A stretch of DNA of 64,000 bases from Lytechinus pictus (Eukaryota). Made by a program: the position numbers and the translations under genes. How positions within the stretch are numbered: the first letter of the stretch is position 1; the number at the start of each line of letters is the position of its first letter. This document shows positions 5,739 to 62,808 of this stretch, piece by piece. The stretch is taken from the NCBI RefSeq assembly GCF_037042905.1, contig NC_087245.1:23252001-23316000 (forward strand), read 5' to 3'. Under the pieces are notes generated by a model, which did not search any database, had not been told where the DNA came from, and saw only the letters and a list, made by a program, of their open reading frames with translations.

Positions 5739-8700
5739 CTGCAATAACAAACAACAAATAATATCTATTGCTGCTAATTTTCTTGCATTTGTACAAGAAT
5801 ATTCAAAATTACCATCATAATTTGAGGGACAAAACATAGCAGTATGCTTGTGGATTCAAAATATCAGGGAAACATGGGATAATAAGGAATAAAAAAAATA
5901 GAAAAATACACAGACGTATGAGACAATTTGTTTGAAAAAATAGACCAGACTTTTTAATCTTGCCCACTTTTTTTGCTAGAAACACTAAATTAGGAGTATG
6001 CATAATTAAATCTGTTTTAACTAATACACCAAAATATCCTATACATGTATAATAACTCAAATATTAGTTTAATTTGGTTCTACGAACTTCTGCAAGAGTT
6101 TATTCTATAGAAATATATTAATCAATTGTCATAAAAGGTCAAAAGGTACATTGAACTATATCACAGAGAATTATAGGATTTATCTTATCTGAGGTCACAT
6201 AACAGATTTTATTTGAATTGAAAATGAGTTTCAAATAGTCCTAGATGTAACAAATCAGCAAAGTAATGATCCCAGCAATAGAAATTTGATGGAAACTATC
6301 CCCATGGATTTTTTTTTTTTGGCAACTGGGCCTGGGAGGAGAAAATGAAATTAGGTAGTCGTAATGACTTGAACTTTGCAAATAAATGGGTATCATTACG
6401 AGTGCTACTCAAAATTTATGGCTAATTTGAACCGTGTTAATGATGTTTAAGAAACCGAAGAACCTTGTCCTTGTCAAGGCACTGAGACATCGATTCCGTA
6501 GTGCTGAGCTCATACTTCTCAATTGACTTGGACATTGCGAGGGCTATTCATTTCTTCTTGAATTCAAAACGGCATTTGCAGTACATGCAGCTGTTGAGAG
6601 TGCTTCAAGCTTACTACCTCTTAGTATCATTCGACATCCATCGTGTCCTGCAGTAATTCACTCAGACTTTGATAATTTTGACACATTTGTGAATGATCTA
6701 TACGGAGCTGGAAGTGTCTATTGAGCGCATGGAATCATGCTTCAGTTTTCAAGATCAAGGTGAAAGTATCAGAAGAACAAAATCAGTCATGCAGACATTG
6801 ACGGGAACAAGAGAGATATCATGACATTGGGGACCAAGCAAAATCTTCCAGAGTGTAACATGGAGAAACACAAGTCACCAAAATTCAAGGTTGTCAAGAA
6901 ATATGTTGATGGTGAAAGAGTACTTGCGAGAGAAATGGAGAAGAATCTCCGTTGGATCATGGTGCGATTGGACAGTGCTGTTAGACAACAGAAAGTGCAC
7001 GGCTAGGGAGGATATGTTTCACTGACAAGAATTATCCCTGTGAATATTATCCCATCATACCTCTCCCAATTACTGATATCAAAGTCATTCAGTAATGCCT
7101 CAGGTACTAAGAAGTGGGTTCACAAGATGTTGGGCGTGTCCATGATGGCATTTCCACTGGTATGAAATAATACACACCAATGTGAGAAACACAACACCAT
7201 GATTGGTACTTTCCATTTAGTCTGTGGCTGTTGGGGAAGAAGATGGATGGAAAAGGGTTCGCTGAAAATTTGCTGGAAGCTTGTCTTACAACATCTGGAT
7301 CTTCGATGGAAGTCATTCCAGCCAAGAATTATGCCTAACCACTATAACCTGCCACAAACTCTGATGGAAGCCCTTGAGAGATTAGTGTTGGCTTGTTTTC
7401 TGAGATGAAGAAATACCATTTGAGAAGCTACCAGTCTTCTAGGGACTGCATCGAGAGTCTTGTTACATCACCAATCATCATTCAGACATATTATTCCTCT
7501 AGCTTTACTATGCTAGATCACTGGATGGACTTTAAAACCTGTTTAAAACTGGAAAGGGCAACAAATGATGCTACATAGATGTGACAAAGCTGGGCATGTC
7601 TTCCACGCCTGTTCTTTGTTCTCCATTGCTTGGCTACTATGTGTGCGACATGGGTGCAACAGTACCAGTGCCTTCAAAGGAAAGGGTAAAATGAAGGGGT
7701 TGAAAGTCGTTGAAACAGATATAAATCATTCCAGGAAGCATTCTCCATGTTAGGGTAGTCTTGGCAGAGAAGTTTGCATGCATGCTCTATGGTACCATAA
7801 CAGAAGAAAATAATGGAGAGGAATTGCTAAATAAAAGTACCGTAAGGGCACTATGTGACTAGTATTCAACCCGTTTGGAGAGTTTCCTCAAATATATAGA
7901 AATATAGAATTTACCTGAATTTCAGACCCGTCTTATTTCCAAGAGCAAATGCTGGTTTTTCTTTTTCTGTTATTTTTTTCTTCAACCCGTCGACTGTGTG
8001 CGCGGGCGATTGAATTATACGGCGATGGTTTTTGGCACTAGTATTCAATCCGTCGGCACTAGTATTCAACCTAGCAATGAAAGACGGCCCTGTCTCTCAA
8101 TCTGCCCTTGTCCCATCTGACTATGGACTAGACCATTTGAGATGAGACCAAACAGGGAATTAATCAAAGCCAGAGACTTACATAGATCTAGATCTAATTT
8201 AGCAATCTAAACCATTTTGAAATTCGCGATCTATCATCACTAGGTTGAATACTAGTGCAATTCAGTGCAAAAGGTCATCGCCACATAATTCGATCCTCCG
8301 CGCATACAGTCGACAGACTGATAAAGAAAATACCAACAACAGATTACCCTGGAAATAACAAAGGTATGAAATTAAGATAAATTCCCTATTTCTAAATATT
8401 TTGGGGAATTTGTCAAAATCTTTGAATTATGCCGGGTTGAATATTAGTGCCCATACGGTAGTCATATCTAGATGTGTCTAATCTTCATTTTCTGCTTCCA
8501 GCTGAAAATGTGGGCATGGTCAAAAGGTCAATGGGGATAATATTCCATCGAATTTCTATTGCTGGGAACATTCATTTTCTAATTTTTTACATCTAGGACT
8601 ATTTGAGATTCATTTTTAATTAAAGCAAAGCTGTTATATGACCTTGGTGACAAAGAAAAATCCAATAATTGCTCTGTAACATGGTTCAATGTACAAGATA

Positions 8701-11700
8701 ATGACCTTTTGACCTTTGATATATTAAGATATTTTTAAAAATAAACACTTGCAGAAATTCATAGAACTCAATTAAACCAATATTTGAGTGATCATACAGG
8801 ATAAATTGGTGTAAAGTTGAATATGCATACTCCTACTAATTTGGTGCTTCCTGCAGAAAAAGTAGGCATGGTACAAAAAGTCCGGGAAGGGGGGGGGGGT
8901 GGGGGGTAACTTCCATCCCAGCTTTTTTTTCTTGGTAACACAAATTGTCTAAACCAATGGCTAAAGGAATGGTTTGCGAATTTCAAATATCCAAATAATA
9001 GAAGGGATTATGGAGAAACAATTTAATTATATGACATGACTCACCTGGAATAAAAAGCACATCCCCTGGTTCTAGGAGACAATGATACGGTGTGGCTAAT
9101 TTGAGGGATGGATATTTCTCAAAGTCTGGGTTATCAAGGTCCATTACAGCAGATTTATCACCTACAAAGGAAATGCAAAGTAAAATTAATTCAACAAGAT
9201 GGATATACCTTTAAACATGCAAGCTCTGAGATATATTACACACTTCAAAAAATTCTACACCATCATACAAATACCTATGTTCAAATCTCTGACTATGCTA
9301 TTATCCTTAATTTTTCATTCAATTTAATATCTAGTTGTAATGACGTCATAGCAATCGTACGATCGGCTACAATTTGAAAATAATTTGGCCTTTACTCCCA
9401 AATAAAGGCTTGCAATCACCCAAAATTGTTATATTAGTATTCTATCAGTTAATTTTTAACGTCATATAAAAAGATAATTTTCATTCACTTTTCAGAAAAT
9501 GATCAAATGCGATTTGTCCCAAAATCGGATCGTGGACCAGTCATAAGGTGTACAGTGGCCTTTATGCTGTAAACCAAGGGGCATAGGTTAATTGATGGTT
9601 CACACTCCCTTTAACTATGTATATTAGAGAGTTTCAATGTACTTCACTTTGGTACCTAACACTGATATATCAATGTGCTCATATCAGAATTGCTTTGGAG
9701 ATGCTGAAAGGGATGATTCTTCAAGGTTCAAGGTTATAAATTTTGACTTGGTAACCCTGAAAATAAATTAGATTATCATCACTAGCACATGCATATGTGC
9801 AAAGTTTGGAGCTGATCCGTCAAATGTTCTTCATTTATCAGAAGTACATTATGAGCAATTTTCGTACATATAATTTATCTACGAATTTGTTATTTGTTTT
9901 AGTTATTGCGAGAACAAAAAAAATGCCTATTCAAATGAACTGCCCAAACATACATGTTCTAATCCTAATTTGCAATAAAAAATTTCAGTTTTGAAACTGT
10001 TATTCACATCAACTCTTTCGAAAACACATTGTTTTATGATTGACCACACAACCCTAGATTTTTTAAGGATCCAGCAGTCCCAGGTTTCATAAAGCAAAGA
10101 TGAAAAAGAAGTATATCAAAGCACGTTACCTGTAAGGTAGAGATGATTGGCATCCTGTGGACTGAATAGAATCACACGCTTATGACCTCGGACTTGCATC
10201 AATATATTGTCCATGACCTTCAAAAACATGAACATGAAGAAAAATATGCACATGAGTGAATGTATACTGGGCCAAAACCTTTGGGAAGGCCTGACTTATG
10301 AACACTGTGTACAATTTCTGAGAATTTTTTAATAGGAAATGCGTGCTGAAAAAATTCTCTCTCTCACTCTCTACAAAAAAAATCAAAGACAAGGATGCAA
10401 AATTGATAAACCACATGTACTAGGAAAATCTGTTGCTGCACAGTGGCTACTGGGCCAACGATCACTTGGGCAAAATTTATTTTCAGAGTACTTCTATTTT
10501 GAACAATAAAATATGGATTTTCATTTTCATTATCTTGTATTGGCCTTTGTGTAGGGTTCATACCCTTACACAAAAAACGAGGTTTTTTTTTCAATGATAA
10601 AAAATAGAAATTCTTCTTTATATCTATGAAAAAAATTGAATGAATAATAAAACTTACATCATAGTGTGTCCACAACTGCAAATTTGCTGAACCTACACGA
10701 AAGACACTCGAGAAAAACTGTTCTTGGTTAAAGAAATCTGGTATTTTGAGGTCGTCTGCTAATGATGGAAACTGAGCCTTCACATCTGCTATTCCCTGTA
10801 AATATGAAGGCCAGGGTAATAATATACATGTAAGTCCTTTGGAAGTGCATAGGGAAGTTATGACATAATGTGATATGTGCTATAAAAGAACTGCGTTTTT
10901 ATTATTTTCATATTAAACAATCTACTCTCTTTTAAATGATGGCAAGCCACTAAACAGCATACATAAATTGCATTTCCTCTTGTTTTGTCATTCTCAGAAA
11001 AGGTCACCATTCATGAAAATCACGACTCAACCATCTTTCCGCCCCACATCCAAGCAAGTGTGAACACACACAAAAACAAACAACTGCACACCGCATCAAC
11101 TTTCAGTGACCCACAACTCCCAGATCTGAATATAAATGCAGATTACAAATTATTTTTGTATGTTAATGTTGTGGATATTCACAAATCTAACAGGTTCAAA
11201 TCACATTTCAAACCATCAATGGCCACACAATTCACTTCCAATATTATGAAAGATAATCAGGAAAGAAAAAAAAACACATCGTGAAATAATTCATGTTCAT
11301 TTTTACATATTTTATTGGTGATCTCTGCTCCATATGTCTTCTTCAAATTAATATCTTCTTTATCCTGTTAAAGAAGAATGAACAAGTGAATTATTTTAAA
11401 GAAAAAAGCACTACAGATAAGATTTACCTTCCGAGGGTCCTCACCAAGTGATCGCAGATAATACAGCTCATTCTGTTCAAAGAAATTGATAACAAAGAAT
11501 TTTGAATGTTTACATTCATATTCACCAAGAGCGGAATACAATATGCCTATAGTAATTAGAAATGAAAAGATGATCCATTTATATTTGTAAATCAAGATGT
11601 AAAAGGAACAACACAGAACATAAAAAAACAATTAAACAAATCAAATAAAAATGAGAAATATTGAAAGATAATTCTAATTTGCATATATGGATAATCAATT

Positions 11701-14700
11701 TAACATGAATAAAAGATTTCTGACAATGAATCTAGATTGTAGTTCACTGAAAAAGACTTAATGCATACCAGGATTGGTGGAATTCACAAGGTGAATGGTG
11801 AAAAACTTCAGAGGCTGAATTGCCTCTCCCTCGCCTTATTTTCACTTTAGACACCAAATTAACAAATACATAAAGCCAGTATACAATTTTACATTTGAAA
11901 GGAATTTAATTCTAGAATGACAATTCTCCTAAATAATGTCATACCTTTTCAAAAAAGAAATCCTCTTGAACTTCTTTTGCGCATCGATGGATAAGCTCAG
12001 AGAAGGGGAGACTCCTGGATTTATGAATGTTAGGATAAATTAAAAATTTTAAAATTTCATTACTGTCTGTACTACAGTAGCTAATTTAGTATGTACATGT
12101 AAAATAATGAGAAATAGTTTGAATCTAACTCTAGTTATCCAATATTTCTAACAGTCTGTAGTCTCTGTATCAGAATACAAGATAATGATAATACATGATA
12201 TCTTAATAGCACTATTTCCACTTTGGTAAAAATGCTTAAGGTGATTTAGGAAGACAGAGATGGAAGAAAAGAAGAGATAGAGGGAGATATAGAGAGAATA
12301 GAGAACTGCCAATCAAACATACATTGTTCAAAGTGGCCTTCATGCTCCTTTAGAAATTACAGAATTTGGCTGGAGATTAGAAACAAAAGCAATCGATTGA
12401 CTGGAAAAAGTACAACAGTGTAATCCTTAATGATAATAAATAAAAACTTTCCCTATAGTCAATACTCTCTTCATTTGTTCATTTGAAAGCATGAATTGTA
12501 ATTTGAAAAAAAAGGATCTCTAAACTCTCAATAGCCAATAACTAGTAATTGATAACATTACGTACATACATGTATGTAAAAATATAAATTGTAGTATAGA
12601 TGTAAAAAAAAAAAAAAGATCTATCACATAAAGAGAGGATAATTCATGAATCAGTGGATCCTTGATACATTACCTATAGGCATAATTCTTGTTTATAAAG
12701 TCCATCTTGGATGAAGGACTAACATGAATCTTGACCTCTGTATCACCCCCTTGTGAAGCAAGGTATTCAGCTGTCCATTTCTCAACACATGGGCCAATGT
12801 CTAACCCTCGAATGACAGCAGGATTCCTCTGTTTAAAAAAAACAAACAATAATTTAACTGTAGGCTAATTATTTTCCCTTTCATTAATACAGACTTTACA
12901 GTAAAACCATCTGTGGAATGGTGGATCCAGGCTTTGTTTTTGTTTAGACTAATACCATTTGGCCCAATGCCCAAATTTTCCAACACCACCTGGGCCCCGT
13001 CTTACAAAGAGTTGTGATTGATCCGATCGATCGCAACTATGGACGGCCAGCAATGTCAACATCTATTATGCATGTTTGTTGAAATATATTTTCTAGCTAT
13101 GATGTATATTCATGCATTCATTGTTGTCTTGAAAATTCACTGTGCTTTTCTTTGTTTACAAAGGACATTGTGCACATTTCCTATAGAAAAAATTATGACA
13201 CTGATGGATTTCCATAGAGTTAAGATTGATTGGATCAATCGTAACTCTTTGTAAGACGGGGCCCTGGTCTATTAGTAACAATTATCTTCATTATTTCCTC
13301 ATCATCATTCATCTCTATCATCTTTACTAATCTAATCAACATCATGATAATCAAGCTATCATCATTACCAGTCATCATCATCATCATCATCATCATTCAT
13401 TTAATCATTTTTATCATCATTCATTACCATAAAAGTCAGCCATCATCAACTCATCACCAGTATCATAATTAATAATTGACACATTAAATTGATTGACACA
13501 CATTAAAACAGAAGTCAAGATGAAATTGAGTTGGTGACTAAATGGATGCCTCTGATCAACAGTTTTTTTTTTATTATTATCTAAAGAAAACTTCTTGCTA
13601 GCCGGGATTATCTGATAGGGGTGAAAGGCCATCTCAACTTGATTTAACTCAACACCTAGACAGGAATAACCGTCGTTTCTGGGGATTTATTCAACAATTT
13701 CTGACATTTTACTGTAATCCCCATTTACCGACGGTAGGGTGTACGTGTGGGCTCGCATGTGTTCTCATTCCCTCCCTTTTGTCAATTCACAGTCCAAAGT
13801 TTGATGTAATTTTACACATCGAATTTACAATCTAAGGATGTATAAACAACAAACTTTTAGACCTTGATATTCGAATATTTAAATACTTTAAACGATATAG
13901 ATGAAAAAGGCATGAAAAATATACTTTACCGATGTTTAATTGGGTTGAACACGATAAAAATGGTCAAAATGGCAGCCAAACTATAAAATATTTACAAACG
14001 AACGTCAACAATCACGAATGTGATATCGATATTGCTTTCGATATTATACGATCTGCTCCATATGCGAACGAAACCGAAGATAAACGATACTAGTTATACT
14101 AGTAGGCCTACTAGTACTAGTTATAATCGCGATATATCGATTCGAGACATTAAGTTAATAACGATAATGACGTCATTCAAGATGGCAACTTGCAAGAAAA
14201 ACGGTCAGGTCAGGTGAAAATGTCTTAGATGACAGATTTCTCAATCATCCAGAGGATTTTTTTCAATAACTCCGGCCCAAGGTATGCAATTACTTAAGTT
14301 ATTTATATTTCCCTGATAATGGAAACCATGAAACTTTCAATTTTGCTTAAAAAACAGTTTTAAATCGCGATCTATAAAACGCTAGTTCACTATACGTTGG
14401 CTGTAGGTACGGGGCCCCATCCCCTTCAGTCTATCATGTATGGTGAGTGGAGCCAACGTAGTTCAGCGGAACAACCAAAATACAGAGACTGAAGCTTTAG
14501 TTTTGGTCTACTCAACACCCTGCTCGAAGCAGACCATAGCCAAACAAACTGATGACTATAATACTCCTTAGTTAAATTGCCCAGGGGCATCATCAATCAG
14601 AGAAAGGGGTATTGCATAACACAACAGTCTGTCTGTGACATGGTTTGAGACAAGGGGAGGTTACAACCGTACCTCAACCTCCTAAGTTAGGCCTAACGTT

Positions 14701-15012
14701 AGCTCCTTCCATTCCAACCACTTCCACCATATCACGGAATTGTGAAATCACCTTATCACTTGCGTGCACAAAAAATTGCACACGCTGGTACGGTACGTCA
14801 AGACTCCGAGTCCAAGTCGCAAATCAAATGGCGTTAGGCCATGCCATTTGATTTGCGACTTGGACTCGGAGTCTTGACGTTTGTCGTCCGGACGGACGTG
14901 GACCGTACCAAACAGAACTCACCTTTTGGTAAATGACATCTAAGAATTCAGTTTTACTGACATCAGTATAAACGGGCACGTCTTTTTTTATCCATTTTCC
15001 TTCGGATTCCAT
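5479..15012 (-). CDS. TYW5: tRNA wybutosine-synthesizing protein 5 (JmjC hydroxylase), 8 coding exons, ~320 aa
   Basis: Exons (minus): 15012-14923, 12828-12674, 12014-11945, 11472-11428, 10795-10658, 10217-10130, 9161-9045, 5738-5479; total 963 nt, all GT-AG, phases consistent. Contains TYW5-typical [27 protein letters not shown] (HxD), GDVLFIPALWFHNV (distal His), [14 protein letters not shown]. Confidence 0.96.
5918..8952 (+). mobile_element. Decayed Academ (XPG-type) DNA transposon in TYW5 intron 7
   Basis: ~390-bp diverged inverted repeats (~5918-6306 vs ~8530-8952) flank a frameshifted ORF with [72 protein letters not shown] and the XPG/H3TH-like [13 protein letters not shown]. Family assigned from recalled motifs. 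Confidence 0.75.
7840..8458. mobile_element. Tc1/mariner-type MITE nested in the Academ relic
   Basis: ta|CCGTAAGGGCACTA ... TAGTGCCCATACGG|ta; ~240-bp imperfect inverted arms; TA TSD. Confidence 0.75.
9045..9161 (-). CDS. TYW5: TYW5 coding exon 7
   Basis: [19 protein letters not shown]...[10 protein letters not shown]; gtag / gtgagt. Confidence 0.95.
10130..10217 (-). CDS. TYW5: TYW5 coding exon 6
   Basis: [29 protein letters not shown]; gaag / gtaacg. Confidence 0.95.
10658..10795 (-). CDS. TYW5: TYW5 coding exon 5
   Basis: [12 protein letters not shown]...[20 protein letters not shown]; acag / gtaagt. Confidence 0.96.
11428..11472 (-). CDS. TYW5: TYW5 coding exon 4
   Basis: [15 protein letters not shown]; acag / gtaaat. 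Confidence 0.95.
11945..12014 (-). CDS. TYW5: TYW5 coding exon 3
   Basis: [23 protein letters not shown]; ccag / gtatga. Confidence 0.92.
12674..12828 (-). CDS. TYW5: TYW5 coding exon 2
   Basis: [23 protein letters not shown]...KIHV...[10 protein letters not shown]; acceptor aaacag, donor gtaatg. Confidence 0.95.
12993..13263. mobile_element. PIF/Harbinger-type MITE
   Basis: TIR GGCCCCGTCTTACAAAGAGTT, CTG duplicated on both sides. Confidence 0.85.
13290..13460. repeat. Degenerate (TCA)n microsatellite
   Basis: Runs of tcatcatca. Confidence 0.8.
14795..14880. repeat. Perfect 38-bp inverted repeat with a 10-nt loop
   Basis: ACGTCAAGACTCCGAGTCCAAGTCGCAAATCAAATGGC (14795-14832) and its exact reverse complement (14843-14880). 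Confidence 0.95.
14923..15012 (-). CDS. TYW5: TYW5 coding exon 1
   Basis: [30 protein letters not shown], donor AAG|gtgagt. Confidence 0.88.
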
Positions 15013-15277
15013 TACTTTTTTTTGTTTTTAATCTACTCAGCTCGCACAGTTTAGGATATATGGAAAGCGGTGTGTGTAGTTCTCAAATAGGGGGGGGGGG
15101 GTAGGCCTAGCTACTTATGGATTTTATCTTTCATTAATTTTGTTGCAATATGCATGCTGACCGGGATGATGGCCTAAACATGTGTTGGTTATCACTATTA
15201 TTTATTATTAATGAATTGATTTTTTATAGATTATTTCATTCTCCAGTTAGCTACAAATACAATGATGAGGTTCTGCA

Positions 15278-22186: not shown

Positions 22187-22223
22187 ATGCACAAATTCTT
22201 GGACTTGCCCTCCTTCATTCTTT

Positions 22224-51000: not shown

Positions 51001-54000
51001 CCCTCTTTTCTTTCTCTCCCTTTTTTCTATATTTTACGCTATCAATGTTGCAAGACCTGTATTTCTTTTACTTTTGCCCATGAAGTTCTCATATCCTGTA
51101 ATTATTTCTACTCAAACTTTTTGTTTCCTTAGTGCTTACTGCATTGATGTATGTACTAAGTTTGGAAAGCATGCTGTACAAGCCATGGGTTCTATATCTC
51201 AACTAAATCCAGCGTACTTAGCGACATGTATGGATGCTATACTTCGTCTTCTTCACCTTGGAATTGACCGAGTTTCTTCAGCAGTTTTCATCGAGATGCA
51301 AGGTATTTACTGTTCTGACTCAAAGATATTATTTCAATATTATATTCCTTTACTTCACTTCATAGCAGCAAAAATTTTCACATAATAAATAACCAGAGAC
51401 AGATCATTTCAGGAAGTTCCTACATATAGTGGGTTGGATTTTCATTCTTTATAGAATTGCAAACATATGAATTTTCGAAACATTACAACAAATGTGAAAT
51501 TATGAAGAGCAAGGTAGATTAGGGAGAGAGAGAGAGAGAAAGAGCTTTGCACAAATGAATGAATTCTGGTTTTCCCTTTGCTTCTCAACACACAGTGCGT
51601 AGCTTTAAATATTTTCCCCCTATTTTTTGCTTTATCCTCTTCTAGAATTGCTATCCATTGAAGGGAAGTATCAAGAATATGTTGATCAAGTGTTAGATTT
51701 TATTCCAGGCTGTTGGTCTAATATAGATGATGAGGATGGCAGATGTGCGATGATTTTTCTTGTAGGCCACCATGGACAGGTAGGTTTATAATATATTCTG
51801 AGTGACACGACACTTGCTCCTGCGACAATTGCTTTGGGCTTAATTTTGTCTAAGATGTAGGGTCATTCGATTAGTGTGTGGAATATAGAGCGGAGTAATT
51901 GTCGCCGGAGCAAATGTCATGGAACCATATTCTGAAGGGGTGGAGGGGAGGGGGGGGGGATGCTGTTTCATAAATCTGTTCATAATTTGCACAGTACTTT
52001 TCAAGTGACTGGACTAGAACATATTCTTCGGTGTTAAATACCCATCGGTTTAGTCGAGTTATGATCTTCGTAGATTAGAATTCTTTTTGTTTAGAAGCAG
52101 TTAAATGCAAAAAAAAATTATTTGTCAAAATTTATTTAGGGTTACAAGAATGTAAATCTCACTTTGTTTAAATGGCAGGGTAAAATATGGGTATTCAAAT
52201 TTAGCATGTTTTTGGCCTTTAACTTTCATCTTAAAGTATACAAGCTGTACATGGGCGAAAGAAAATGTGCAGTTAACAAATAGTTCCTGAATATTTAAAG
52301 TGTGTACAATAATAGTCACACCCCTTCTAGGTACACCGAGACCAAATGCCATAAAATCATCCATTATATTTTCTCTATTTTGTTATTTCATTTTTTAGAG
52401 ATTGCAAGATGCTCCCTACCTCCTTGAGAGTGCAATTGATAGTGTAATGGAGGAATCCAGTCTTGAGGTCAAAGGTCATCTACTGAGTGCAATCACCAAG
52501 TTATTCTTCACCCGCCCTGCAGAATGCCAAGATACGCTTGCTACATTGCTGCACCATTGCATAGGTAAGAGCTGTGTATTGTTATTGCTGTGACATAGAA
52601 ATCAATTTGTATGAGGGCTTTTTCCAGCTTCTGGGGAGCTTTTCATAAAACGAATAGTCCGTGATTTTCACTGACAACTGCTATCAGCTAGTACAAATCC
52701 TTGCTTTTGATTGGCTGAGAGCGTGAGTGAAAGACCTAAAGGCTGAATTCTCAAAGAGAATTTGGAATCTGTGGTTTGATAACATTTCTTAATACTGATT
52801 TCATGCATTACTTGCGCATGAATCAGCGGATATATTGAAGAAGCGTCCAATAATGACACAGTCAATGTCGTTGTCAACATTGAAAGCTTAAAGGACAAGT
52901 CTACTTCCCCCCCCAAAAAAAATGATTTGAATAAAAATAGAAAAACCCAACAAGCATAACCCTGAAAATTGGATGTAAAATAAGAAAGTTATGACAATTT
53001 TAAGTTTTGCTTAATTTCACAAAACAGTGATATGCACATCCTGTTCGGTATACAAATGAGGGGACTGAAGACATCACTCACTCACTATTTCTTTTGTTTT
53101 ACATTTCATAAAATATGAAATATTCTAATTTTAACCTCATTGTCCTGTGAAACAAAATTTTATTCCTCCCTGAACATGTGGCATTTTCAATGTTTTAACA
53201 TTTCATGGTTCAATTAAGTTGGTCCTTAATGTCAAATTGGTAAAATTTGAAAAATTGTATAATTCAAGCAATAAAAAACAAAAGAAATAGTGATTGATGG
53301 ACATAATAAACTTTCTCATTAGCATGTCATTGAGTTGTGAATATAACTGTTTTGTGAAAAATAGCGAAACTTTAAAATGTCATTTTCTTATTTTACATCC
53401 AGTTTTGATCAAATGTTCAGCATTATGCTCATTTGATTTTTCTCTATTTATTTGAATCAACATTTGTCTTGGGTGGACTTGTATATGGACCTATTTATGA
53501 GACGTGGATATATTAGGGTTATGAAGTGTCACTGATCATCTGGCATGAGTTGCAGGTCACATGATTCAGATGCAGATCACATTGGTTACCTCTCAATAAC
53601 AATCAATTTTCTTGAGATTCAGTGAACGATGAATAATGCTCCCTGAAGGAAGTTGGAGATGAGTTCCTTCATGTATTTGTGTGCTCTCTTTAGTAAAGAC
53701 AGACCAATATACAGACCCAAAGAATATTTTATAAGACCCTGTGCTTACCAAATGTGTAGATTGTTAAGTGTCTAGTTGTAAGGTACCATTTAATTTTTTT
53801 TAAATAAAATTCATATAATGGTAATGTACTTCTCTAAATCATTTAATGGTAAAAGGTTTCTTGTTAATAAAACAGTTACCAGAGTGTCTGTAACTACTAG
53901 AAGTGGCAGGGTGGTTAAACGTCCAATGTGTTTACAATGTAATTGTGCCAGATATGAATAGATGAAGTTCATGGTGGGTGTTATAATTGTTGTAATATTA

Positions 54001-57000
54001 TCCTTTTGCAACATGTACTTTTACAACACAACCATTTGTATTTATTATTTGTAAATATTTTCATTTTTGTACACATTCATTATTATAAATAGATTCATTT
54101 TTTGTATACACAAATTCATAGATATGCTCTTGGTAGACTCTTATACCAGAGTGACATAAAATCTTTTCTTACTATTAAAGTCAAAGGCCATTTTGGATAA
54201 CAATTGATATATTGATCATTGTTTAAAAAATATTGAATCAAATTAAATGAAATTTCTTCCCTTTTTTCAAATCCCCTTCTACTACAAGAAGAATCAGGGG
54301 AGGGGAAAGGGGGAGCAGTGACCCCCTGCTGCCCCCTGAACGGCAGCTCATTGAGTTTACATAAACCATAACAAGATCAAGTTATATTGGGCTTTAGGCT
54401 CAGAGGGCTTATGGTATTCTTTGTTTTTGTCCACCATACCTTGTAGCAACCTTTGTCATGAGCAAGGCATTCCTTTCTCTCAAAGGTATGCATACCATGT
54501 GAAATCATCTAGCTAACAGGTCTTTGTCTGACCTAGCAACAATCATGAATCATGCATTCATTGGATATAGTGTCCCACCACAATTAGACAAATTCCTGAA
54601 GGTGGTGCACACAGTCAGTATTGTGCATTTGTTTTGACAACTTTCAATAGATAGACCCATATGAATAGAGGAATGCTATGACCATTGAAATTCAAAGAGC
54701 CAGATGGTAGCTTTGCTTGCAATGTTTAAATACCTTTATGAACTGGTCATCATGGATTCAAGTATAAAAGAGGAGAGATTTGTGTCATGAATTACTTATT
54801 GTTGTATTCATGAAGGCATGATAATAGATTCTCACCCCCTCTCTGCCTATTGGATGATAGCACTAAAGTCTATTGTCAAACATCATGTTTATGCATGGTT
54901 TAGAAATTAAAACCAATGCGTGGTGGTTTCGTCACTAACTGTCAAAAGTTTGCCTATCATTTGCTGGAGTATATAAGACAGGCCTAGCTTGCTCTAAGTG
55001 GAGGCAGTGAGCAAGCAAGGCCAGTGTACAGAGACACATATAACAGAACTTGTGACTAGTCATGTGATGATGATGTCATTAGTGGTGATGTCACTACATC
55101 TACATAACAATAAACATGCACAACACAATACTCTACATACCATAACCCCCTTTTATGCTGTATGCTGGTCTTGTTTATTATCTATTTATGTCAGCCTTTT
55201 TTCAGCTGGCATAAATAGGTGATTGCTAGTGGGCTGCGTTTTCAACTCTAAACTAATTTATGCTAATTAGATTTGAATCAAAGTCCAGTTCAGAAGTTCA
55301 TAGAAAGTTCATTTGCTCATCCGAAGGGCTAGTAGGTCAAGGGTCCACAAACCTAGGATATGAAATGTTTTTATTTCCCTCTTCAAAAATAAAATATTTA
55401 TCTTTTTTAGTTGTTTATTAAATCAGCACTAGTATTATTTTGAAACATGCAATGCAGGCGAGACTGGCAGAGACCACTTTTCAAGTTATTTACATGAACA
55501 GTGGGCTCATTAAGGCATTGACCTTTAATAGTACCAAGCACTGATAAAAACACACATTCATTTTTGGAGGCTTCTTCAATATGCACTCAATTCATGAACC
55601 CTTTTGTCGGACTAAAGTCCAAATAGAATTCAAGTCACAGTCATTGCGATTTTTAATTGAATTTGCTTTTATTTTTATAGCATCGAATTGCATAGTGTGC
55701 GCCGGGCTTGACATTCATTCAAAAAGATATATGGTCCGTAGACAGATATTGTTCCTCTTTGTAGCCCAAAATTGATGAAATACAAAACAAAAATTAATCT
55801 TGCTTTCCTGCATTTTTGTCTCACATACATGTAGCAGGTGAGGTGCTATAGCTGCCGCTTTTCCGACGGCGACGGCGGCGTCAACACCAAATCTTAACCG
55901 AAGGTTAAGTTTTTGAAATGACAGCATAACTTAGAAAGTATATGGTCCTAGTTCATGAAACTTGGCCATAAAGTTAATCAAGTATAACTGAACATCCTGC
56001 CTGAGTTTCAGGTCACATGACCAAGGTCAAAGGTCATTTAGGGTCAATGAACTTTGGCCAAGTTGGGGGCATTTGTTGAATTACCATCATAACTCTGAAA
56101 GTCTATTGATCTAGTTCATAAAACTTGGACATAAAGAGTAATCAAGAGTAATCAAGTATCACTGAACATCCTGTGCGAATTTCAGGTCACATGGCCAACG
56201 TCAAAGGTCAATGAACTTTGGTCATAATGGGGGTATCTGTTGAATTACCAATCATAACTCTGTAAGTATATTGGTCTAGTTCATGAAACTTGGCCATAAA
56301 GTTAATCAAGTATTACTGAACATCCTGCCTGAGTTTCAGGTCACATGACCAAGGTCAAAGGTCATTTAAGGTCAATGAACCATGGCCATTTTAGAGGTAA
56401 ATATTAGATTGCTGTCATTACTTTCAAAGTTTATAGATATAGTGTATAAAATGTGGATATAGGGGTAATCAAGTATCACTGACAAGTTTTAGGTCACATG
56501 ATCAAGGTCATGAAAGTAGTATTGTATCCTTGGTGTTTTTTGTGAATGATTATTTTATAGTATTTTTCAAAGTCAGCACTGCTGCTATATTGAATCGTGT
56601 GATGCAGGTGAGACCGCCAGAAGCATTCCACTTGTTACTACTAAATATTGAATTTTCCTACCTCTTCTTGTCTCCTGGATATAGAAACCCAGACAGATGT
56701 AATTCTCCGAGAGAGAGCCATGTTTTATTACCAGTTACTGCATGCTGATATCAATAAGGTAAGCCTAAGTAATACAGTGATAAGTACCCTGTTATTATTA
56801 ATGTAAATATGCTTTTTAATGCTCTTACAATTTGAAATTGTAAAATCCATCAAGTTCATTGAAAAAAAAATACAATTAGTCCTGAATCAGCAAAAATCAC
56901 ATGTTGTATGGACATGAGGGGTGGTAACAACTTGGTTAAGTAAGCAAGCACACTTCATAATTAAATGGGAGAAAGTTTTATCCTTTTTCTATTTTAGCTC

Positions 57001-60000
57001 AGGAAATTATATAGTCTGTGGCAATCAAAATAATGCATGCTAATACATTTCTTCACAGAAGTTAGCCATTAAGATTAAAAACACTCCTGGAAAATGGGGA
57101 GTTTTTCGCTTCCTTTTTGTGTGTCTCTATTAATACTTATGAAGTCATTTTGGTTATGAATACTTGAGTCATTTTGGTTTTAACTGATGACAACAAATCC
57201 TCAATCACAGTTTACTCAAAATTGATTCTGCATTGTCAATGGAGATGCCAGTACCAGCAGATTAAGAAATGGCTAGTAATTTTTTTTATTTATTTATTTT
57301 TTTTTTTTTGGGGGGGGGGGCTATGTAAAATGAAAAGAAATCTAATTTGTTAAACACTTGTTTGATACTGTATTTTTGAAGATAATGTAAATATTTTGTG
57401 AATTCTGAAGCTGTAATAATTTCTGATTTGTACTTATCATTAACACATCAATCCTTTGTATTACAGGCAAAGCTGGTAATCTGTTCATCTCAGAGGTTAA
57501 CACCACCTTCAAGAGCTACATCAAGGCAACATTCATCAATCAACAACTTCAATAGCTTCCAACTGTTATTGGGTAAGAATTTGATTCGGCAAGAATTTAT
57601 TTGTTCGGACATTTGGGTCAGTATAATCAGCATATTCTTCACCTAAGTGGGCTAAAGTAGGAAACACCCTTCTTCAATGGAAAGTTAAAAGTTTCGTAAT
57701 ACCTCAAAAATGATTGAACTCAATTTACTGTTTTTAGCTAGTGTGTTGTAAAAAATGCTAAACTTCTAAAGATACTGTAAATATTTTCACCTTACATGTA
57801 TGTGAATTTTCATTGGGATCAATACAAGGTGTAATTTGGCATTAAAAGAAACATGTAAAGTAGCACCCATTCAGAATTTTTCTTTCACCTTGATTGAAAT
57901 CTCTCTTAATTTTTTTTCCCCCCAGGATCTGATGACATCTCACACAATGAATTGAAGCAACAGCCATCCTCGTTCTCATCAGATATGCCTTCAGTCAGGA
58001 CCTTGCCCTCTGCTGTGACTGATGCTGTGGCAGCACCAGAGGGTATGCTTGTTGATCTAAGCTTGGATGATACCAAGGTGCAGGATGCAGGAAACAATGA
58101 CAAATATTCAGGCACCAACCATAACCTAGAAGGCACAAACCTACATCTCCATACAGGACATGGGAGGGACAGTAGCAACGTTAACATTGAAATCAAAACT
58201 GCAGCAGGGTCAAAGCTTAGAGAAAAAGGAAGTTTATCATTTCTACAAGATGTTAAAGACCTTGGGGAGAGTTCAATCGGTGTGTGTGACGAAGCAAAAG
58301 CTTCTGAAGAAAGGAAGGATTCTGTACAAATTCAAAGACTTGTAGGCACTTCTGGAGTAGCATCCTCAGTGTCCAAGGATCTTAAAGACATGAAACCATC
58401 CCTTCCAACAAAGAGCATTCAGTCTTCTGAACATTCAAGAAGCACTGTTGAACACCCTGGATCTATAGATGCTGAAGATGGTGAGAAAGAAGAGGAGAGT
58501 TTGGTTGCAAGCGTTCAAGAGGAAGAAGTGACATATGGTGTAACCTTTGACAAGTCGTTTACACTCTCACCCCAGGAATTTGAAGAAAAATGGATGGAAT
58601 GTACAAACAGGTATATCTATGTACTACTTCATATTTTGTATTACAAAATGCAGTTGTAGTAACGAGAACAAATATGAAAAGTTGTCCTGATCAGTTCAAA
58701 TTTTGAAAGATTACCGAAACAGGTTAAGTTTTACTTATAAAATTAGAAATTTTCTCAATATTGTGATATCATCATTAACAGAATTGTTGCCTATGTGCAA
58801 TTCAAGCTAAAGCCTACAAAATTTGTCATGAATTAAATACCCTTGATTTTACTGGTACTATTAGATAAAGCAAGGTCTTTTTTCTCTCTTATGGAAGTAT
58901 TAAATAGTTATCTAGGGAATTAATAATTTGATTTTAAAAAATGATATACAACTGCATGAAGCCATTAGACTGGCTACAATATCATTTTGTACTTTGATAT
59001 ACTCAGAGATTCACACAGTCTTGAAAGCCATCACTTGCTTTCTTGTGGTATTAAAGGACAAGTCCACCCCAGCAAAAAGTTGGTTTGAATAATAAGAGAA
59101 AAATCCAACAAGCATAACACCCAAAATTTCATCAAAATCGGATGTAAAATAAGAAAGTTATGACATTGTTAATTTTCGCTTAATTTCACAAAACAGTTAT
59201 ATGCTTATCCTGGTCGGTATGCAAATGAGGGGACTGATGACATCACTCACTCACTATTTCTTTTGTATTTTATTATCTGAAATATGAATTATTCTAATTT
59301 TCTCCTCATTGTCCTGTGAGACAAAGTTTTATTCCTCCCTGAACATGTGGTATTACCATTGTAATAACATCTTATGGTTCAGACAAGTTGGTCCTTATTT
59401 TCAAATAGGTAAAAATTGAAATATTGTATAATTCAAACAATAAAAAACAAAAGAAATAGTGAGTGATGGACATCATCAACTCTCTCATTTGCATGTCACT
59501 GATTTGGACATATAACTGTTTTGTGAAAATTAAGCGAAATTGTAAAATGTCACAACTTTCTCATTTTACATCCGATTTCGATGAAATTTTCAGCATGATG
59601 CTTGTTTGATTTTTCTCTATTGATTCAAATCAACATTTTTCTGGGGTGGACTTGTCCTTTAACATAGTGCAGTACAGTCGGCCACTTCCCACTTGTATTA
59701 CGCTTTCTGCTTCCTCACTTTGCATACACACATCACTGTCCTTGCTGTATATAACAATATACATGTAAGTACCCCCTCCCCCAATTAAAAAAAAGAAGAA
59801 ATTTGCATGTTTTTATGAATTAAAATGTAGGTGGGAGTGTCTTTCTACATGTACTTCAGTGAAGTCCTCTTTATTTAACAAACAGTGGAGAGGAATGTAA
59901 ACTTTTGCATGCTTTTAGGAAATAAAATGTGGGATTGGATGAGCTAAGAATATAAAAATAGCAGGTGATCTGAGTGGGATAACACAATCACAGCTAATCA

Positions 60001-62808
60001 TTGAAGTAGGATATAGGAGGGAATTGTTTGAAAGAGTATGAGCTGCCTAAATAGAGAAATTGTTATGCATAAACTCACTTTTTTTTCTTTTCTTATTCAG
60101 TAAAACGTTTGAAGTAGCTGAAAAGAAGCCTTCAGTGTTGCTTGAAAGGTTCAATGATATAGGATTCCACACCATGGCGTCCATGCCTGAAGATTCAGAG
60201 CACTGGAGAGCATTTCTTTATGCAAAAGTAAGTTCTTTTGTATTTTTTATACGCCCGTCCTAGACGGGACGTTTTATGGTATCATGCTCGGTGTCCGTCT
60301 ATCTGTCTGTCCGTCCGTTAACTTCTCCTTGTAAACGCGATAACTTCAGTTTAACTAACCTAGGTTCATATAATTTGGTGTGTATGATACTAGCATGGAT
60401 CCCAAGAAGCCTTTCGATTTTGAGGTCAAAGGTCAAGGTCACACTGACATGTTTTTATCTTGTCCTTCTGAAGTCCTTGTTAATGCGGTAACTTTGGTTT
60501 AACTTAACGTAGGCTCATATAATTTGGTGTGTATGATACTAGCGTAGATCCCACCAATTCTATTGATTTTGAGGTCAGAAGGTCAAGGTGAAGTCGCCAA
60601 CTTCCACTTTTCTTGCTTGACCAATAACTCCATTTTCTGCGTTACAGGCGGGTATATTATGTGCTTGCCTTAGCGACACTCTTGTTCATACCTATCATCA
60701 TCGGTTATGTGACATTTGCTCCAGCAACAATTGCTCCAATTGAAAGTCTGCACATTAAACCAAACATAAAACCTAACCTGCTTTAGATAAAGTAATCTAA
60801 AGACCACCACACCCTTGAATATTTCACTTTGAAACAGGTACCTTTCATTAAGACGACCTGGGCTCCGTAACACAAAGATTTGCGATTAATCACTAATTTA
60901 AAAAAAAACTTCTGATTGGTTCTTAGTCAGTCAACTGAGCAAAATGCGCATGCAACAATGATCTTGATAGGCTATTTCATTTAGCAATTAATCGTTAACC
61001 GACACAAAGGTTACGGAGCCCTGGGTTCCATAACACAAATGTTAGCGATTGATATTACGCCTGACTTACATGGCGATAGTACATTGTGATCAAATTTATT
61101 CAATCGTAAAGATATCCTTCTACATGTACGTTGATTGCTAAGCTTTGTGTGACAGGTTCCAGGTGGTTGTTTCATAAAGCTGCTATAAGTTATGAATGTC
61201 TTAACGCATGACTGGTGTACCTTTCTTGTGTTATGGTATATCCCTACATGTATGTATCTGACTTAGCACCTAAGAACATGTTCCAGTTTTGCAGATAGTC
61301 ATGTGTAACTTTACAAAGCTGAATCACCAACCCACCTACACATATATAGCCACATTATCTGTCTCCTTCGACAGGTTTTCCCCTGTTAAAAATTTACCAT
61401 TTTAAATTATTGTGGAAGGGTTTTTGTCTCGCCTGCATAGCAGAGCGAGACTATAGGCGCCGCTTTTCCGACGACATAAGGGTAATGAAGTATTACTGAA
61501 CATCAGGTCACATGACCAAGGCCAAAGGTCATTTAGGGTCAATGAACTTAGAACATGTTTGGGGAATCAATATCGAAATCTTAACCAAGGTTAAGTTTTT
61601 GAAATGTTGTCATAACTTCAAAAGTATATGGACCTAGTTCATAAAACTTAGACATTAGGTTAGTCAAGTATTACTGAATATCCTGCCTGAGTTTCACGTC
61701 ACATGATTAAGGTCAAAGGTCACTTAGGGTCAATGAACTTTGGCCATATTGGGGGTATTTGAGGTATTGTCATCATAACTTTGAAATGTTATTGATCTAG
61801 TTCATGAAAATTGGACATAAGAGCAATCGAGTATCCTTGAACATCTTGTGCTAGATTATGGTCAAAGGTCATTTAGGGTCAGCAAACTTTGGTAATGTTG
61901 GGGGTATTTGTGGAATTTTCATCATAACTTTAAAAGTCTATGGATTTAGTTCATGACACTTGGACATAAGAGCAGCAATACCCTCTGTGTGTTAAGTTAA
62001 CTTATCATGTGTAATGACACAGAGGATGACCTGATGAATATATTTTTATATAATGTACATACTGTGATATTAATTTTCAGTGTTCTGATTATGAATTATG
62101 CTGATATCACTATTCAAATAGTTGAAAAGGTGATAATTCTCCCCCGAAACCGAAAAAAAAAATCCAAATAATTTAACTCCCAGGTCATTGCCATTAAGAT
62201 TGACCTATTGATACCATTCTTTAATACTTCAGTAAGAGAAATTGTGTGTGTGTTTTCATTTCCAAACAAAGAAAAAATACAATACATTCATTTAGTTATA
62301 TATATCCATCTACATCACAATTTTATTGCATTTTTATCCAATTACTGTACAAATAAAACAATACTTCTAGTGGTGAATATATATAACACATAAATATTGA
62401 GGTATAAAGCTATGTCACAAGTAATATACACAACCCATAAGTATGTACAATTTCATAATGGTGTGGTATATAAAAGTGCAAAACTGGAGTACATACATTT
62501 ACAATATTAAAACATTGAAGCATATATCAGTAACAATTTACTTTGAAAAATGCAAATGTTCACTGAAATTTCCATTTTATTTTTTTTTTGGAATAAGAGA
62601 GATACAGATTCTTATGAGGGAGTCAAGAGAATATGATTTAATATCTTTCATCATATTATTTTCCATACAGATAGGAGGTGATCTGTTTCTCATGGAGACA
62701 ACTGTGCATCAGAGATTAGGAGCATGTTCTTCTTGCATCAAGTCTTCCGACTCCAGCCCCTCATCCACAAACAAGGTTATAGTCCTTTGTAAAAAGGAAT
62801 TCCTTTAA
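30043..62808 (+). CDS. AP4B1: AP-4 complex subunit beta-1 (beta4-adaptin), 17 coding exons, ~885 aa
   Basis: Exons: 30043-30092, 31221-31344, 32862-33034, 33858-33988, 35342-35480, 36668-36761, 37321-37444, 43962-44088, 44543-44638, 51133-51302, 51646-51779, 52399-52564, 56685-56758, 57467-57572, 57926-58610, 60101-60227, 62671-62808; total 2658 nt, all GT-AG and in phase. Beta-adaptin trunk motifs ([46 protein letters not shown]) plus beta4-like [41 protein letters not shown] and a short platform-type ear ([10 protein letters not shown]...HTMAS...WRAFLYA). Confidence 0.93.
30110..30518. mobile_element. Palindromic MITE
   Basis: TAGAGTAC...GTACTCTA termini; long internal inverted arms (catgaatacataattagccccattgaag / cttcaatggggctaattatgtattcatg). 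Confidence 0.75.
31221..31344 (+). CDS. AP4B1: AP4B1 coding exon 2
   Basis: [41 protein letters not shown]. Confidence 0.9.
31736..32512. mobile_element. piggyBac-type MITE
   Basis: TTAA|CCCTAT..AACTGGG ... CCCAGTTTAATAAGGG|TTAA. Confidence 0.8.
32862..33034 (+). CDS. AP4B1: AP4B1 coding exon 3
   Basis: [17 protein letters not shown]...[17 protein letters not shown]. Confidence 0.95.
33136..33488. mobile_element. Diverged Harbinger-like MITE
   Basis: aggcccaagatacacatgcg ... cgtatgtgtatctccagcct. Confidence 0.5.
33858..33988 (+). CDS. AP4B1: AP4B1 coding exon 4
   Basis: [35 protein letters not shown]. Confidence 0.95.
34051..34438. mobile_element. Foldback/Mutator-like MITE with internal short tandem units
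   Basis: GGTTAATTGCCAATTCGTC ... GACGACTTGGAAATAAACC, flanked by a TTCAGAT direct repeat; ttcgtctaa / ttagacgaa arrays. Confidence 0.75.
35342..35480 (+). CDS. AP4B1: AP4B1 coding exon 5
   Basis: [23 protein letters not shown]...IAHALLN. Confidence 0.93.
35616..36402. mobile_element. TIR element enclosing a ~550-bp CT-rich tract
   Basis: tcttaacagacact (35622) / agtgtctgttaaga (36381); pyrimidine tract ~35765-36310. Confidence 0.55.
36459..36729 (+). repeat. 147-bp-offset tandem duplication of an AP4B1 acceptor and exon 5' part
   Basis: 36521-36581 matches 36668-36728 with one mismatch; upstream intron sequence is also duplicated. Confidence 0.92.
36668..36761 (+). CDS. AP4B1: AP4B1 coding exon 6
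   Basis: [31 protein letters not shown]; gcag / gtaagt. Confidence 0.94.
37321..37444 (+). CDS. AP4B1: AP4B1 coding exon 7
   Basis: [22 protein letters not shown]...DVTGRLK. Confidence 0.93.
37740..38085. mobile_element. Two adjacent Harbinger-type MITEs
   Basis: ctg|GTGGGTGTTTCATAAAGCTGTTCGTAAG...CTTACGAACAGCTTTATGAAACACCCAC|cag|second copy|ctg. Confidence 0.85.
39248..43872. mobile_element. 4.6-kb non-autonomous piggyBac-type element
   Basis: TTAA|CCCTTTGCGTGCG ... CGCACGCAAAGGG|TTAA; the joined flanks (gggagaaattaatggccaaac) match the uninterrupted sister repeat at ~39040; no transposase ORF visible. Confidence 0.88.
42057..42128 (+). mobile_element. L2-type LINE/SINE 3' end fragment
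   Basis: agcgcttagaaa...agcgctatataaat stem-loop followed by an (ATT)n tail. Confidence 0.55.
43962..44088 (+). CDS. AP4B1: AP4B1 coding exon 8
   Basis: [24 protein letters not shown]...YYKKFYC. Confidence 0.93.
44195..44315. repeat. (AAT/GAT)n microsatellite
   Basis: Direct reading. Confidence 0.9.
44543..44638 (+). CDS. AP4B1: AP4B1 coding exon 9
   Basis: [31 protein letters not shown]. Confidence 0.93.
44809..48455. mobile_element. Possible decayed Kolobok-like element filling part of an AP4B1 intron
   Basis: agtatacatccgaagaa (44809) vs ttctttggatgtatact|ttaa (48455); inverted tgacgtcaca motifs at ~45008 and ~48246; several nested MITEs. Confidence 0.4.
47081..47229. mobile_element. 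149-bp palindromic hAT-like MITE
   Basis: TACCTCAAGTGATGTT...AACATCACTTGAGGTA; 8-bp flanks tggtgctc / cggtgctc; centre cctacccgggtagg. Confidence 0.75.
48610..49700. repeat. Degenerate ACAT/ATCT-rich tandem repeat
   Basis: Recurrent gaccttgat (~48716, 49173, 49360, 49506, 49680) and acatcaatatctac units. Confidence 0.7.
50095..50735 (+). mobile_element. Internally deleted L2/Crack-like LINE
   Basis: Cys-rich N-terminus plus [12 protein letters not shown] (typical ORF2 start) joined to the ORF2 C-terminus [27 protein letters not shown], then a 3' UTR ending aaataaa(ttttgaa)n. Confidence 0.7.
51133..51302 (+). CDS. AP4B1: AP4B1 coding exon 10
   Basis: [19 protein letters not shown]...AVFIEMQ. 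Confidence 0.93.
51646..51779 (+). CDS. AP4B1: AP4B1 coding exon 11
   Basis: [44 protein letters not shown]. Confidence 0.93.
51802..51926. mobile_element. Mutator-like MITE
   Basis: gacacttgctcc.gcgacaatt / aattgtcgccggagcaaatgtc, flanked by a 9-bp direct repeat ATATTCTGA. Confidence 0.7.
52399..52564 (+). CDS. AP4B1: AP4B1 coding exon 12
   Basis: [11 protein letters not shown]...[21 protein letters not shown]. Confidence 0.95.
52892..53482. mobile_element. Kolobok-like palindromic MITE (same family as 59055)
   Basis: TTAA|AGGACAAGTC...GTGGACTTGT; collinear with 59055-59658. Confidence 0.8.
55813..56636 (+). mobile_element. Helentron-associated (HINE/DINE-1-like) element
   Basis: TTTTTGTCTCAC start, gacggcg micro-repeat, tandem units with gaccaaggtcaaaggtca, subterminal caggtgagac and end cattccacttgTT; related copy at ~61420-61975. 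Confidence 0.65.
56685..56758 (+). CDS. AP4B1: AP4B1 coding exon 13
   Basis: [24 protein letters not shown]. Confidence 0.93.
57467..57572 (+). CDS. AP4B1: AP4B1 coding exon 14
   Basis: AKLVICSSQ...[11 protein letters not shown]. Confidence 0.88.
57926..58610 (+). CDS. AP4B1: AP4B1 coding exon 15 (685-nt hinge exon plus start of ear)
   Basis: Open 227-codon S/D/E-rich frame in phase with both neighbours, ending [17 protein letters not shown]; cccag / gtatat. Confidence 0.88.
59055..59658. mobile_element. Kolobok-like palindromic MITE
   Basis: TTAA|AGGACAAGTCCACCCCAG ... CTGGGGTGGACTTGTCCT|TTAA. Confidence 0.88.
60101..60227 (+). CDS. AP4B1: AP4B1 coding exon 16
   Basis: KTFEV...[26 protein letters not shown]. 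Confidence 0.9.
60243..60687 (+). mobile_element. DINE-1/HINE-like element
   Basis: ttttTATACGCCCGTC-ctaGACGGG, (GTCY)n microsatellite, subterminal caggcgggtata, 3' stem-loop ending cttgTT. Confidence 0.7.
60858..61335. mobile_element. Cluster of three Harbinger-type MITEs joined at CCWGG sites
   Basis: cctgggctccgtaacac...gttacggagccctgg; second copy to ~61160; third copy homologous to the 37740 family. Confidence 0.65.
62671..62808 (+). CDS. AP4B1: AP4B1 terminal coding exon
   Basis: IGGDLFLME...CIKS...LCKKEFL* after a catacag acceptor. Confidence 0.85.
   Translation: MGGDLFLMETTVHQRLGACSSCIKSSDSSPSSTNKVIVLCKKEFL

What the first reader, a model, noticed from the sequence alone, without database searches (positions are those of the whole stretch)
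6042..61252. Recurrent TA -> TACATGTA 6-bp insertions shown by three internal copy comparisons (candidate transposon excision footprints)
Seen: three unrelated repeats each have one copy carrying exactly 6 extra bases (CATGTA) after a TA. (1) Academ left TIR tatccta-TA-CATGTA-taataactcaaata (6042-6049) vs right TIR reverse complement tatcctg-TA-tgatcactcaaata (~8795). (2) Harbinger MITE tatatccc-TA-CATGTA-tgtatctgacttagcacc (61245-61252) vs tatatccc-TG-tgcagctgacttagcacc (~37825). (3) hAT-like MITE left arm TA-CATGTA-cgc (47137-47144) vs right arm TA-cgc. TACATGTA also recurs at ~2309, 10825, 12093, 12567, 35548, 40952, 43921, 57793, 59760 and 61121. Established: Tc1/mariner excision leaves the duplicated TA plus terminal bases, and Tc1 (CA...TG ends) can leave TA-CA-TG-TA. 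Inference: the region carries many scars of insert-and-excise cycles, a directional mutational signature that ordinary repeat annotation misses.
Basis: partly seen in the sequence, partly recalled or inferred. Interest (0 to 1): 0.75.

Follow-up and report, generated by a model that had tools for sequence, protein, structure and literature searches.

The report
Six-letter transposon scars in urchin introns
The word TACATGTA is several times too common in the introns of this sea-urchin DNA, and at two sites checked against many sister copies it is six extra letters at a plain TA, likely the scar left when a cut-and-paste jumping gene hopped out, although that jumping gene was not found.

Summary
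Partly confirmed. TACATGTA occurs 22 times (16 outside one ACAT-rich tandem array) against about 2-7 expected. One is ambiguous: at 6042 the best alignment is an inverted duplication, one mismatch better. One fails: at 47137 the arms differ by 2 letters, and the word sits unchanged in a high-depth repeat contig. A new clean case appeared at 61121. Flanks match the published Tc1 target motif (88 of 176 positions against about 60; p about 1e-4). 21 of 22 sites lie in introns, none in the 15-kb gap between two genes; TAGATCTA and TAGGCCTA cluster near gene starts. Best reading: full two-plus-two excision footprints of a Tc1/mariner-type element (0.7). No culprit element or occupied allele was found, and partial footprints are not enriched. 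This scan has reported the same signature at over a dozen other places in this genome; I found no paper describing it as a natural genome-wide signature.

The parts
61245..61252 (.). TACATGTA in a small inverted-repeat family: shown 6-letter insertion at a TA
   Evidence: contigs align from 61251 with loose letters ending ATATCCC (81, 76, 38, 44 contigs in X2, X3, X11, X12); depth 71-350 at 61247 against 1655-22466 at 61253
61121..61128 (.). TACATGTA in a second repeat family: sister copies lack six letters here
   Evidence: table 4: 'left out 6' at 61121 in 5 contigs of X2 (depth 306 of 580) and 4 of X3 (191 of 664); no local template
6042..6049 (.). TACATGTA in the left arm of a 2.9-kb inverted-repeat element (5945-8885); 6-letter gap real, register ambiguous
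47137..47144 (.). TACATGTA in a hairpin of a multi-copy repeat; not a private scar, 6-letter insertion not supported
   Evidence: table 8 record 9
48632..49549 (.). six TACATGTA words in a degenerate ACAT-rich tandem array; 48632, 48646, 49118, 49279 look intrinsic to the unit, 49542 may be an insertion, 49023 unclear
   Evidence: alignment read by eye
2310..2317 (.). TACATGTA, untested candidate scar inside the sister-word cluster
10825..12574 (.). three untested candidate scars (10825, 12094, 12567) in introns of the TYW5-like gene
35548..59853 (.). eight untested candidate scars (35548, 40952, 43921, 50444, 55826, 57793, 59760, 59846) in introns of the AP4B1-like gene
2013..2898 (.). cluster of 9 TAGATCTA and 4 TAGGCCTA, with stacked forms sharing a TA (2262-2275, 2349-2362)
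14103..15795 (.). 5 TAGGCCTA around the start codon of the TYW5-like gene
5482..15012 (-). host gene, TYW5-like JmjC protein (coding span)
30043..62805 (+). host gene, AP-4 complex subunit beta-1-like (coding span)

Best explanation
Most of the dispersed TACATGTA words are likely excision footprints of a TA-targeting Tc1/mariner-type DNA transposon with CA...TG ends; at 61245 the word is shown to be six letters added at a plain TA. Inferred cycle: the element inserts at a TA and duplicates it; later the transposase cuts two letters inside each end and leaves two non-complementary 2-letter 3' overhangs; the germ-line break would be joined with both overhangs kept and filled in, giving TA-CA-TG-TA. 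Shown here: the excess, the insertion at 61245, the six-letter difference at 61121, Tc1-like flanks, and intronic location. Inferred: the transposon, the cut, the repair route, and the extension from two tested sites to the rest. About 12-14 of the 16 non-array sites would be scars; most array sites are not.
For: Excess 16 against 2.0-4.2 outside the array; one-mismatch neighbours only 69 against 51, so the exact word is enriched. 239 contigs in 4 of 4 runs join the left flank to 61251, and 9 contigs lack six letters at 61121. 2 of 6 six-letter gaps in window self-alignments remove this word. Flanks match the Tc1 half-site T-R-T-G (motif CAYATATRTG, table in PMC2577343): 88 of 176 against 60-61, and 63 of 128 against 42-43 without the array, p 5e-5 to 2.5e-4 with global and local controls; still p 1e-4 to 4e-4 against flanks of other TGTA and ATGTA. 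Tc1 breaks have non-complementary 2-letter 3' overhangs, and the full join is seen in worms (PMC4490562 legend and supplementary file 4). Sister words stack on shared TAs at 3 places, as repeated cycles at one site would give.
Against: No TA-flanked CA...TG element in the window and no DDE transposase hit in 253 of 274 ORFs. No occupied allele was seen, and no contig spanned the window's own copy of 61040-61400. Partial footprints are not enriched: TACATA 74 against 64.8, TACAGTA 12 against 9.2, whereas the full join is a minority outcome in worms (3 of 39 polq-1 revertants, under selection for frame; called rare in PMC3520976). Six-letter gaps are not an excess size class in the window (8, 6, 5 gaps of 5, 6, 7 letters). 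Only 2 of 22 sites were checked against many copies. Case 1 fits an inverted duplication slightly better and case 3 fails. At 61245 the insert is one letter from an inverted copy of the six letters that follow it. The A in the family's empty site at 61252 is read from where alignments start, not from a printed column.
Confidence: 0.7

Rival explanations
1. Scars of a TA-targeting cut-and-paste element, but not by the Tc1 two-plus-two route: for example ends CAT...ATG with 3-letter overhangs that anneal through the self-complementary AT, or another superfamily with CA ends and a 2-letter duplication (animal EnSpm-type elements; recalled, not checked).
For: It would explain why only one product is enriched and partial footprints are not. 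All three enriched cores (CATG, GATC, GGCC) are self-complementary. SB and mariner leave 3-letter overhangs (PMC7827188 passage).
Against: A self-complementary core also follows from the two-plus-two route. The flank bias matches the Tc1/SB motif. No such element was seen.
Confidence: 0.13
2. Local replication errors (fold-back template switching or slippage in TA/CA/TG-rich DNA) build the palindrome with no transposon.
For: Case 1 is best aligned as TATACA, the reverse complement of the adjoining TGTATA. Six sites lie in an ACAT-rich array. 9 of 22 sites have a CATG-like piece within 15 letters, against 24% of all TAs.
Against: 6 of those 9 are array sites; outside it only 3 of 16, no more than background. 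61121 has no local template. Only 3 of 16 TA-NN-N'N'-TA palindromes reach 10 or more copies, and palindromes rarely extend into the flanks (16 of 22 not at all). The flank bias survives the TGTA control.
Confidence: 0.09
3. A transcription-factor site kept by selection: the same word is bound by Irx homeodomains and by PsMyb37 in Phytophthora.
For: PMC3520976 passage and PMC11134190 passages. Sites lie within genes.
Against: The word arises in one 6-letter step inside old repeat copies, is spread through long introns and not at promoters, and has Tc1-like flanks. Binding could be a later use, not the origin.
Confidence: 0.03
4. An unknown enzyme or repair route writes the six letters at TA breaks with no element ever inserted.
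For: One uniform product, no culprit and no occupied allele found.
Against: No such activity is known to me; a known mechanism gives exactly this word; my search for the culprit covered only 64 kb.
Confidence: 0.05

Closest known systems
Tc1 excision footprint TA-CA-TG-TA of Caenorhabditis elegans (PMC4490562 passages and supplementary file 4; Eide and Anderson 1988 only as cited in PMC3520976)
   Same: Same eight letters, a TA target, six letters net gain, flanks like CAYATATRTG.
   Different: In worms it is one minority product among many, seen in laboratory revertants; here it is the only enriched product, stands in natural DNA, lies in introns, and its element is unidentified.
Sleeping Beauty and ZB footprints (PMC7827188, PMC7913693; passages)
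   Same: TA duplication plus terminal letters left by staggered cuts; palindromic AT-rich target.
   Different: Three-letter overhangs and footprints of 0-3 letters; the TACAGTA type is not enriched here.
Natural excision polymorphisms of rice DNA transposons (PMC4423477; passages)
   Same: Excisions read from comparing related genomes.
   Different: Rice excisions are heterogeneous (8 of 94 perfect, most with deletions or filler); here one fixed word recurs.
TACATGTA promoter motif of Phytophthora bound by PsMyb37 (PMC3520976, PMC11134190; passages)
   Same: Same word, very abundant.
   Different: There it is upstream of genes and treated as a binding site; here it is intronic and arises by insertion.

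Membership tests
Tc1/mariner excision footprint | Empty site is a single TA; filled site is TA + fixed letters + TA | tested here: met
   61245 and 61121; not met at 47137, ambiguous at 6042
Tc1/mariner excision footprint | The filled state is the derived one | tested here: met
   61245: 239 contigs lack the word and depth over it is 1-9% of that six letters on. At 61121 only 9 contigs, about a third to a half of the depth in 2 of 4 runs
Tc1/mariner excision footprint | Flanks follow the Tc1/SB target motif | tested here: met
Tc1/mariner excision footprint | Inserted letters equal the ends of a resident element (CA...TG) | not testable with these tools
   No genome held; none in the window. 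Earlier notes name a young Tc1 family in this genome but show no ends
Tc1/mariner excision footprint | An allele that still holds the element at the same TA | tested here: inconclusive
   Not seen in the rows shown; tables were cut and the window's own locus was not spanned
Tc1/mariner excision footprint | Companion partial footprints (TACATA/TATGTA, TACAGTA) as in model systems | tested here: not met
   74 against 64.8 and 12 against 9.2; a modest excess of these short words would be hard to see
Template-switch or slippage product | Insert copied from adjoining DNA | tested here: not met
   3 of 16 non-array sites have a nearby template, background 24%; met at 6042
CpG-decay product of TACGCGTA | Other decay products similarly common | tested here: not met
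   TACGCGTA 0, TACACATA 3, TATGTGTA 2, TATGCATA 4
Selected transcription-factor site | Conserved between species and bound in vivo | not tested
   No orthologous alignment or binding data available

The most novel reading that the evidence does not exclude
Sea-urchin germ lines repair transposon excision breaks into one fixed, family-specific word, so the genome holds a countable map of past insert-and-excise cycles, sorted by chromatin: TA-CATG-TA in gene bodies, TA-GATC-TA and TA-GGCC-TA near gene starts. The gene-body bias would arise because methylation boosts excision of IR/DR-type Tc1 elements (shown in human cells, PMC3680223 abstract) and urchin gene bodies are methylated.
Probability: 0.25. 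Interest if true: 0.75.

Novelty: new variant of a known kind. Interest (0 to 1): 0.5.

Why it matters
Excisions normally leave no trace that annotation can count. A fixed, in-frame six-letter scar would let one measure past cut-and-paste activity, target choice and germ-line end joining from one genome, and would be a directional source of insertions that also creates a known homeodomain/Myb binding word. The footprint itself is textbook; what is unusual is its abundance, uniformity and sorting between introns and gene starts.

Tried and rejected
No whole genome was held, so the genome-wide insertion table could not be made. A scan of the metagenome collection for the repeat family around 61245 found 0 loci. 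Laying four runs on 46500-62000 was swamped by repeats: 12 of 514 indel rows were shown, none at a TACATGTA site, which is no evidence either way. A scan for TA-flanked inverted repeats (16-letter arms, up to 2 mismatches, up to 5 kb, not very AT-rich) gave 4 pairs starting TACA, all inside longer arms. Pfam found no DDE transposase in 253 of 274 ORFs of 55 aa or more; the 21 left out were host exon frames or scanned. Link to low CpG: 0.47 against 0.55, p 0.05 (22 sites) and 0.09 (16), so not shown. CpG decay of TACGCGTA rejected. Case 3 rejected as a private scar. The sister words do not show the Tc1 flank motif: 33 of 96 against 31.8 and 29 of 88 against 29.7. Eide and Anderson 1988 was not held.

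Full report
Setting. No genome was held for this window. Two host genes map by homology: a TYW5-like gene on the minus strand (coding span 15012 to 5482) and an AP-4 beta-1-like gene on the plus strand (30043 to 62805); the best hits are Lytechinus variegatus proteins at 92% and 85% identity over the queried pieces. The window is thus sea-urchin DNA close to that species (inference).

The excess is real. TACATGTA occurs 22 times and is the commonest palindromic 8-mer; Markov orders 2-5 predict 2.2-6.8, and order 6, which absorbs most of the word, 16.3. Six sites lie in a degenerate ACAT-rich tandem array (48.5-49.7 kb). Read by eye, four of them align to sister units without extra length, one (49542) may be a six-letter gain and one is unclear. 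Without the array there are 16 against 2.0-4.2 expected. One-mismatch neighbours are only mildly raised (69 against 51).

The three comparisons. Laying four public runs on 61040-61400 settled it: 81, 76, 38 and 44 contigs align from 61251 onwards and carry loose letters ending ATATCCC, which is the window's left flank; smaller classes start at 61252 (20, 18, 5 contigs) or at 61253 after TG (22, 31). Depth is 71-350 at 61247 and 1655-22466 at 61253. The family therefore mostly has the empty site, and this copy gained six letters. That the empty site reads TA is deduced from where the alignments start. Case 1 (6042): the gap is real, but removing TATACA or ATACAT leaves 6 mismatches in 45 and removing CATGTA leaves 7; TATACA is the reverse complement of the next six letters, so a fold-back duplication fits as well. 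Case 3 (47137): the arms differ by a net 2 letters, no scoring scheme of 4 gave one six-letter gap, and one contig of depth 457 matches 47072-47377 with 2 changed letters and no gap, where single-copy-like pieces of that run have depth 4-9. Depth is no copy number, but the word is evidently shared by a repeat family and is not a private scar. In window self-alignments 2 of 6 six-letter gaps remove the word, but six-letter gaps are not an excess size class.

Target signature. With the insert removed, the flanks match the Tc1 motif CAYATATRTG (table in PMC2577343) at 88 of 176 positions against 60-61 for other TAs, and 63 of 128 against 42-43 without the array (p 5e-5 to 2.5e-4). The signal is mainly R at +2 and T at +3 and persists against flanks of other TGTA or ATGTA (p 1e-4 to 4e-4). 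Outside the array only 3 of 16 sites have a possible local template, against 24% of all TAs.

Location. No site is in a mapped exon. 21 of 22 lie within the two coding spans, which hold 67% of TAs (p 0.0017; 15 of 16, p 0.012); none lies in 15013-30042. The exception, 2310, may be in the first intron of a third gene whose short first exon I infer at 3235-3254 on the minus strand (sequence only). A link to low CpG is weak (p 0.05-0.09). Two sister words are as enriched: TAGATCTA 12 and TAGGCCTA 11 against about 0.8 and 0.4 at order 3. They cluster at 2.0-2.9 kb and around the TYW5-like start, stack on shared TAs at 3 places, and lack the Tc1 flank motif; whether they are insertions was not tested here.

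Mechanism. Established: Tc1/mariner elements insert at TA, duplicate it and excise with staggered cuts (PMC7827188 passages); Tc1 leaves non-complementary 2-letter 3' overhangs (PMC4490562 legend), and the join that keeps both reads TACATGTA (supplementary files 1 and 4). Inferred: an urchin element with CA...TG ends made these scars, and germ-line repair kept both overhangs. Against: in worms this join is a minority product (3 of 39 polq-1 revertants), partial footprints are not enriched here, and neither a candidate element nor an occupied allele was found. A variant with CAT...ATG ends annealing through AT would give the same word and explain its uniformity; it cannot be told apart with these data.

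Comparison and novelty. It works like a Tc1 footprint; membership is not established, since the element-end test could not be run and the partial-footprint feature was not met. Seven full-text searches on the word or on footprints returned no paper that describes the word as a natural genome-wide excision signature; the five papers holding the exact word concern oomycete or fungal promoters (listing seen for all, passages read for two). The library lacks most subscription papers. Papers seen: passages of PMC3520976, PMC11134190, PMC2577343, PMC7913693, PMC7827188, PMC4423477, 10.1101/2021.09.23.461091; abstract of PMC3680223; passages and supplement rows of PMC4490562. Earlier notes of this scan report the same signature in more than a dozen windows of this genome, sister words at a promoter in another genome, and a young Tc1 family; these are unchecked leads and not counted as support. 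This window adds one well-polarised insertion, one further six-letter difference, a controlled flank test, and a caution that some words (the array, case 3) are not scars.

Verdict. Real feature, partly as described; best explained as Tc1/mariner-type excision footprints (0.7; about 0.83 for any TA-targeting element). New variant of a known kind; interest 0.5.

Noticed in passing
window 2013-2898 and 14103-15795: TAGATCTA and TAGGCCTA are about 15- and 30-fold enriched, cluster near likely gene starts, stack on shared TAs (2262, 2349, 8183) and lack the Tc1 flank motif; candidate scars of other TA-targeting families with GA or GG ends.
   Followed up: partly
window 3235-3254 (minus strand): Possible short first coding exon (ATG, then a GTGAGT donor) of a third gene running off the left end, with CpG-rich promoter-like DNA at about 3300-3560.
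   Followed up: no
window 26700-28902: Penelope-like retroelement remnant (weak RVT_1 and GIY-YIG hits) with 122-letter inverted repeats 98% alike, and a small inverted-repeat element inserted at about 27022-27345.
   Followed up: no
window 48540-49700: Degenerate tandem array of about seven 150-190-letter ACAT-rich units in an intron, at low depth in all four runs laid.
   Followed up: partly
window 47072-47377: Hairpin-bearing repeat that matches one high-depth contig almost exactly in run X11, so probably a young family; part of a larger repeat-rich stretch 46500-48567.
   Followed up: partly
window 59051-59662, 52888-53482, 62827-63304: Very high-depth inverted-repeat elements starting TTAAAGG with TTAA-like ends.
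   Followed up: no
window 5945-8885: 2.9-kb element with about 370-letter inverted arms filling most of the last intron of the TYW5-like gene; no Pfam hit inside; the family label Academ is untested.
   Followed up: partly
window 18337-19331: Broken LINE-type reverse-transcriptase remnant on the minus strand between the two genes (weak RVT_1 hit).
   Followed up: no
window 38001-44000: CpG-rich block (observed/expected 0.9) inside a long intron of the AP4B1-like gene, whose other parts are CpG-poor (0.42).
   Followed up: no
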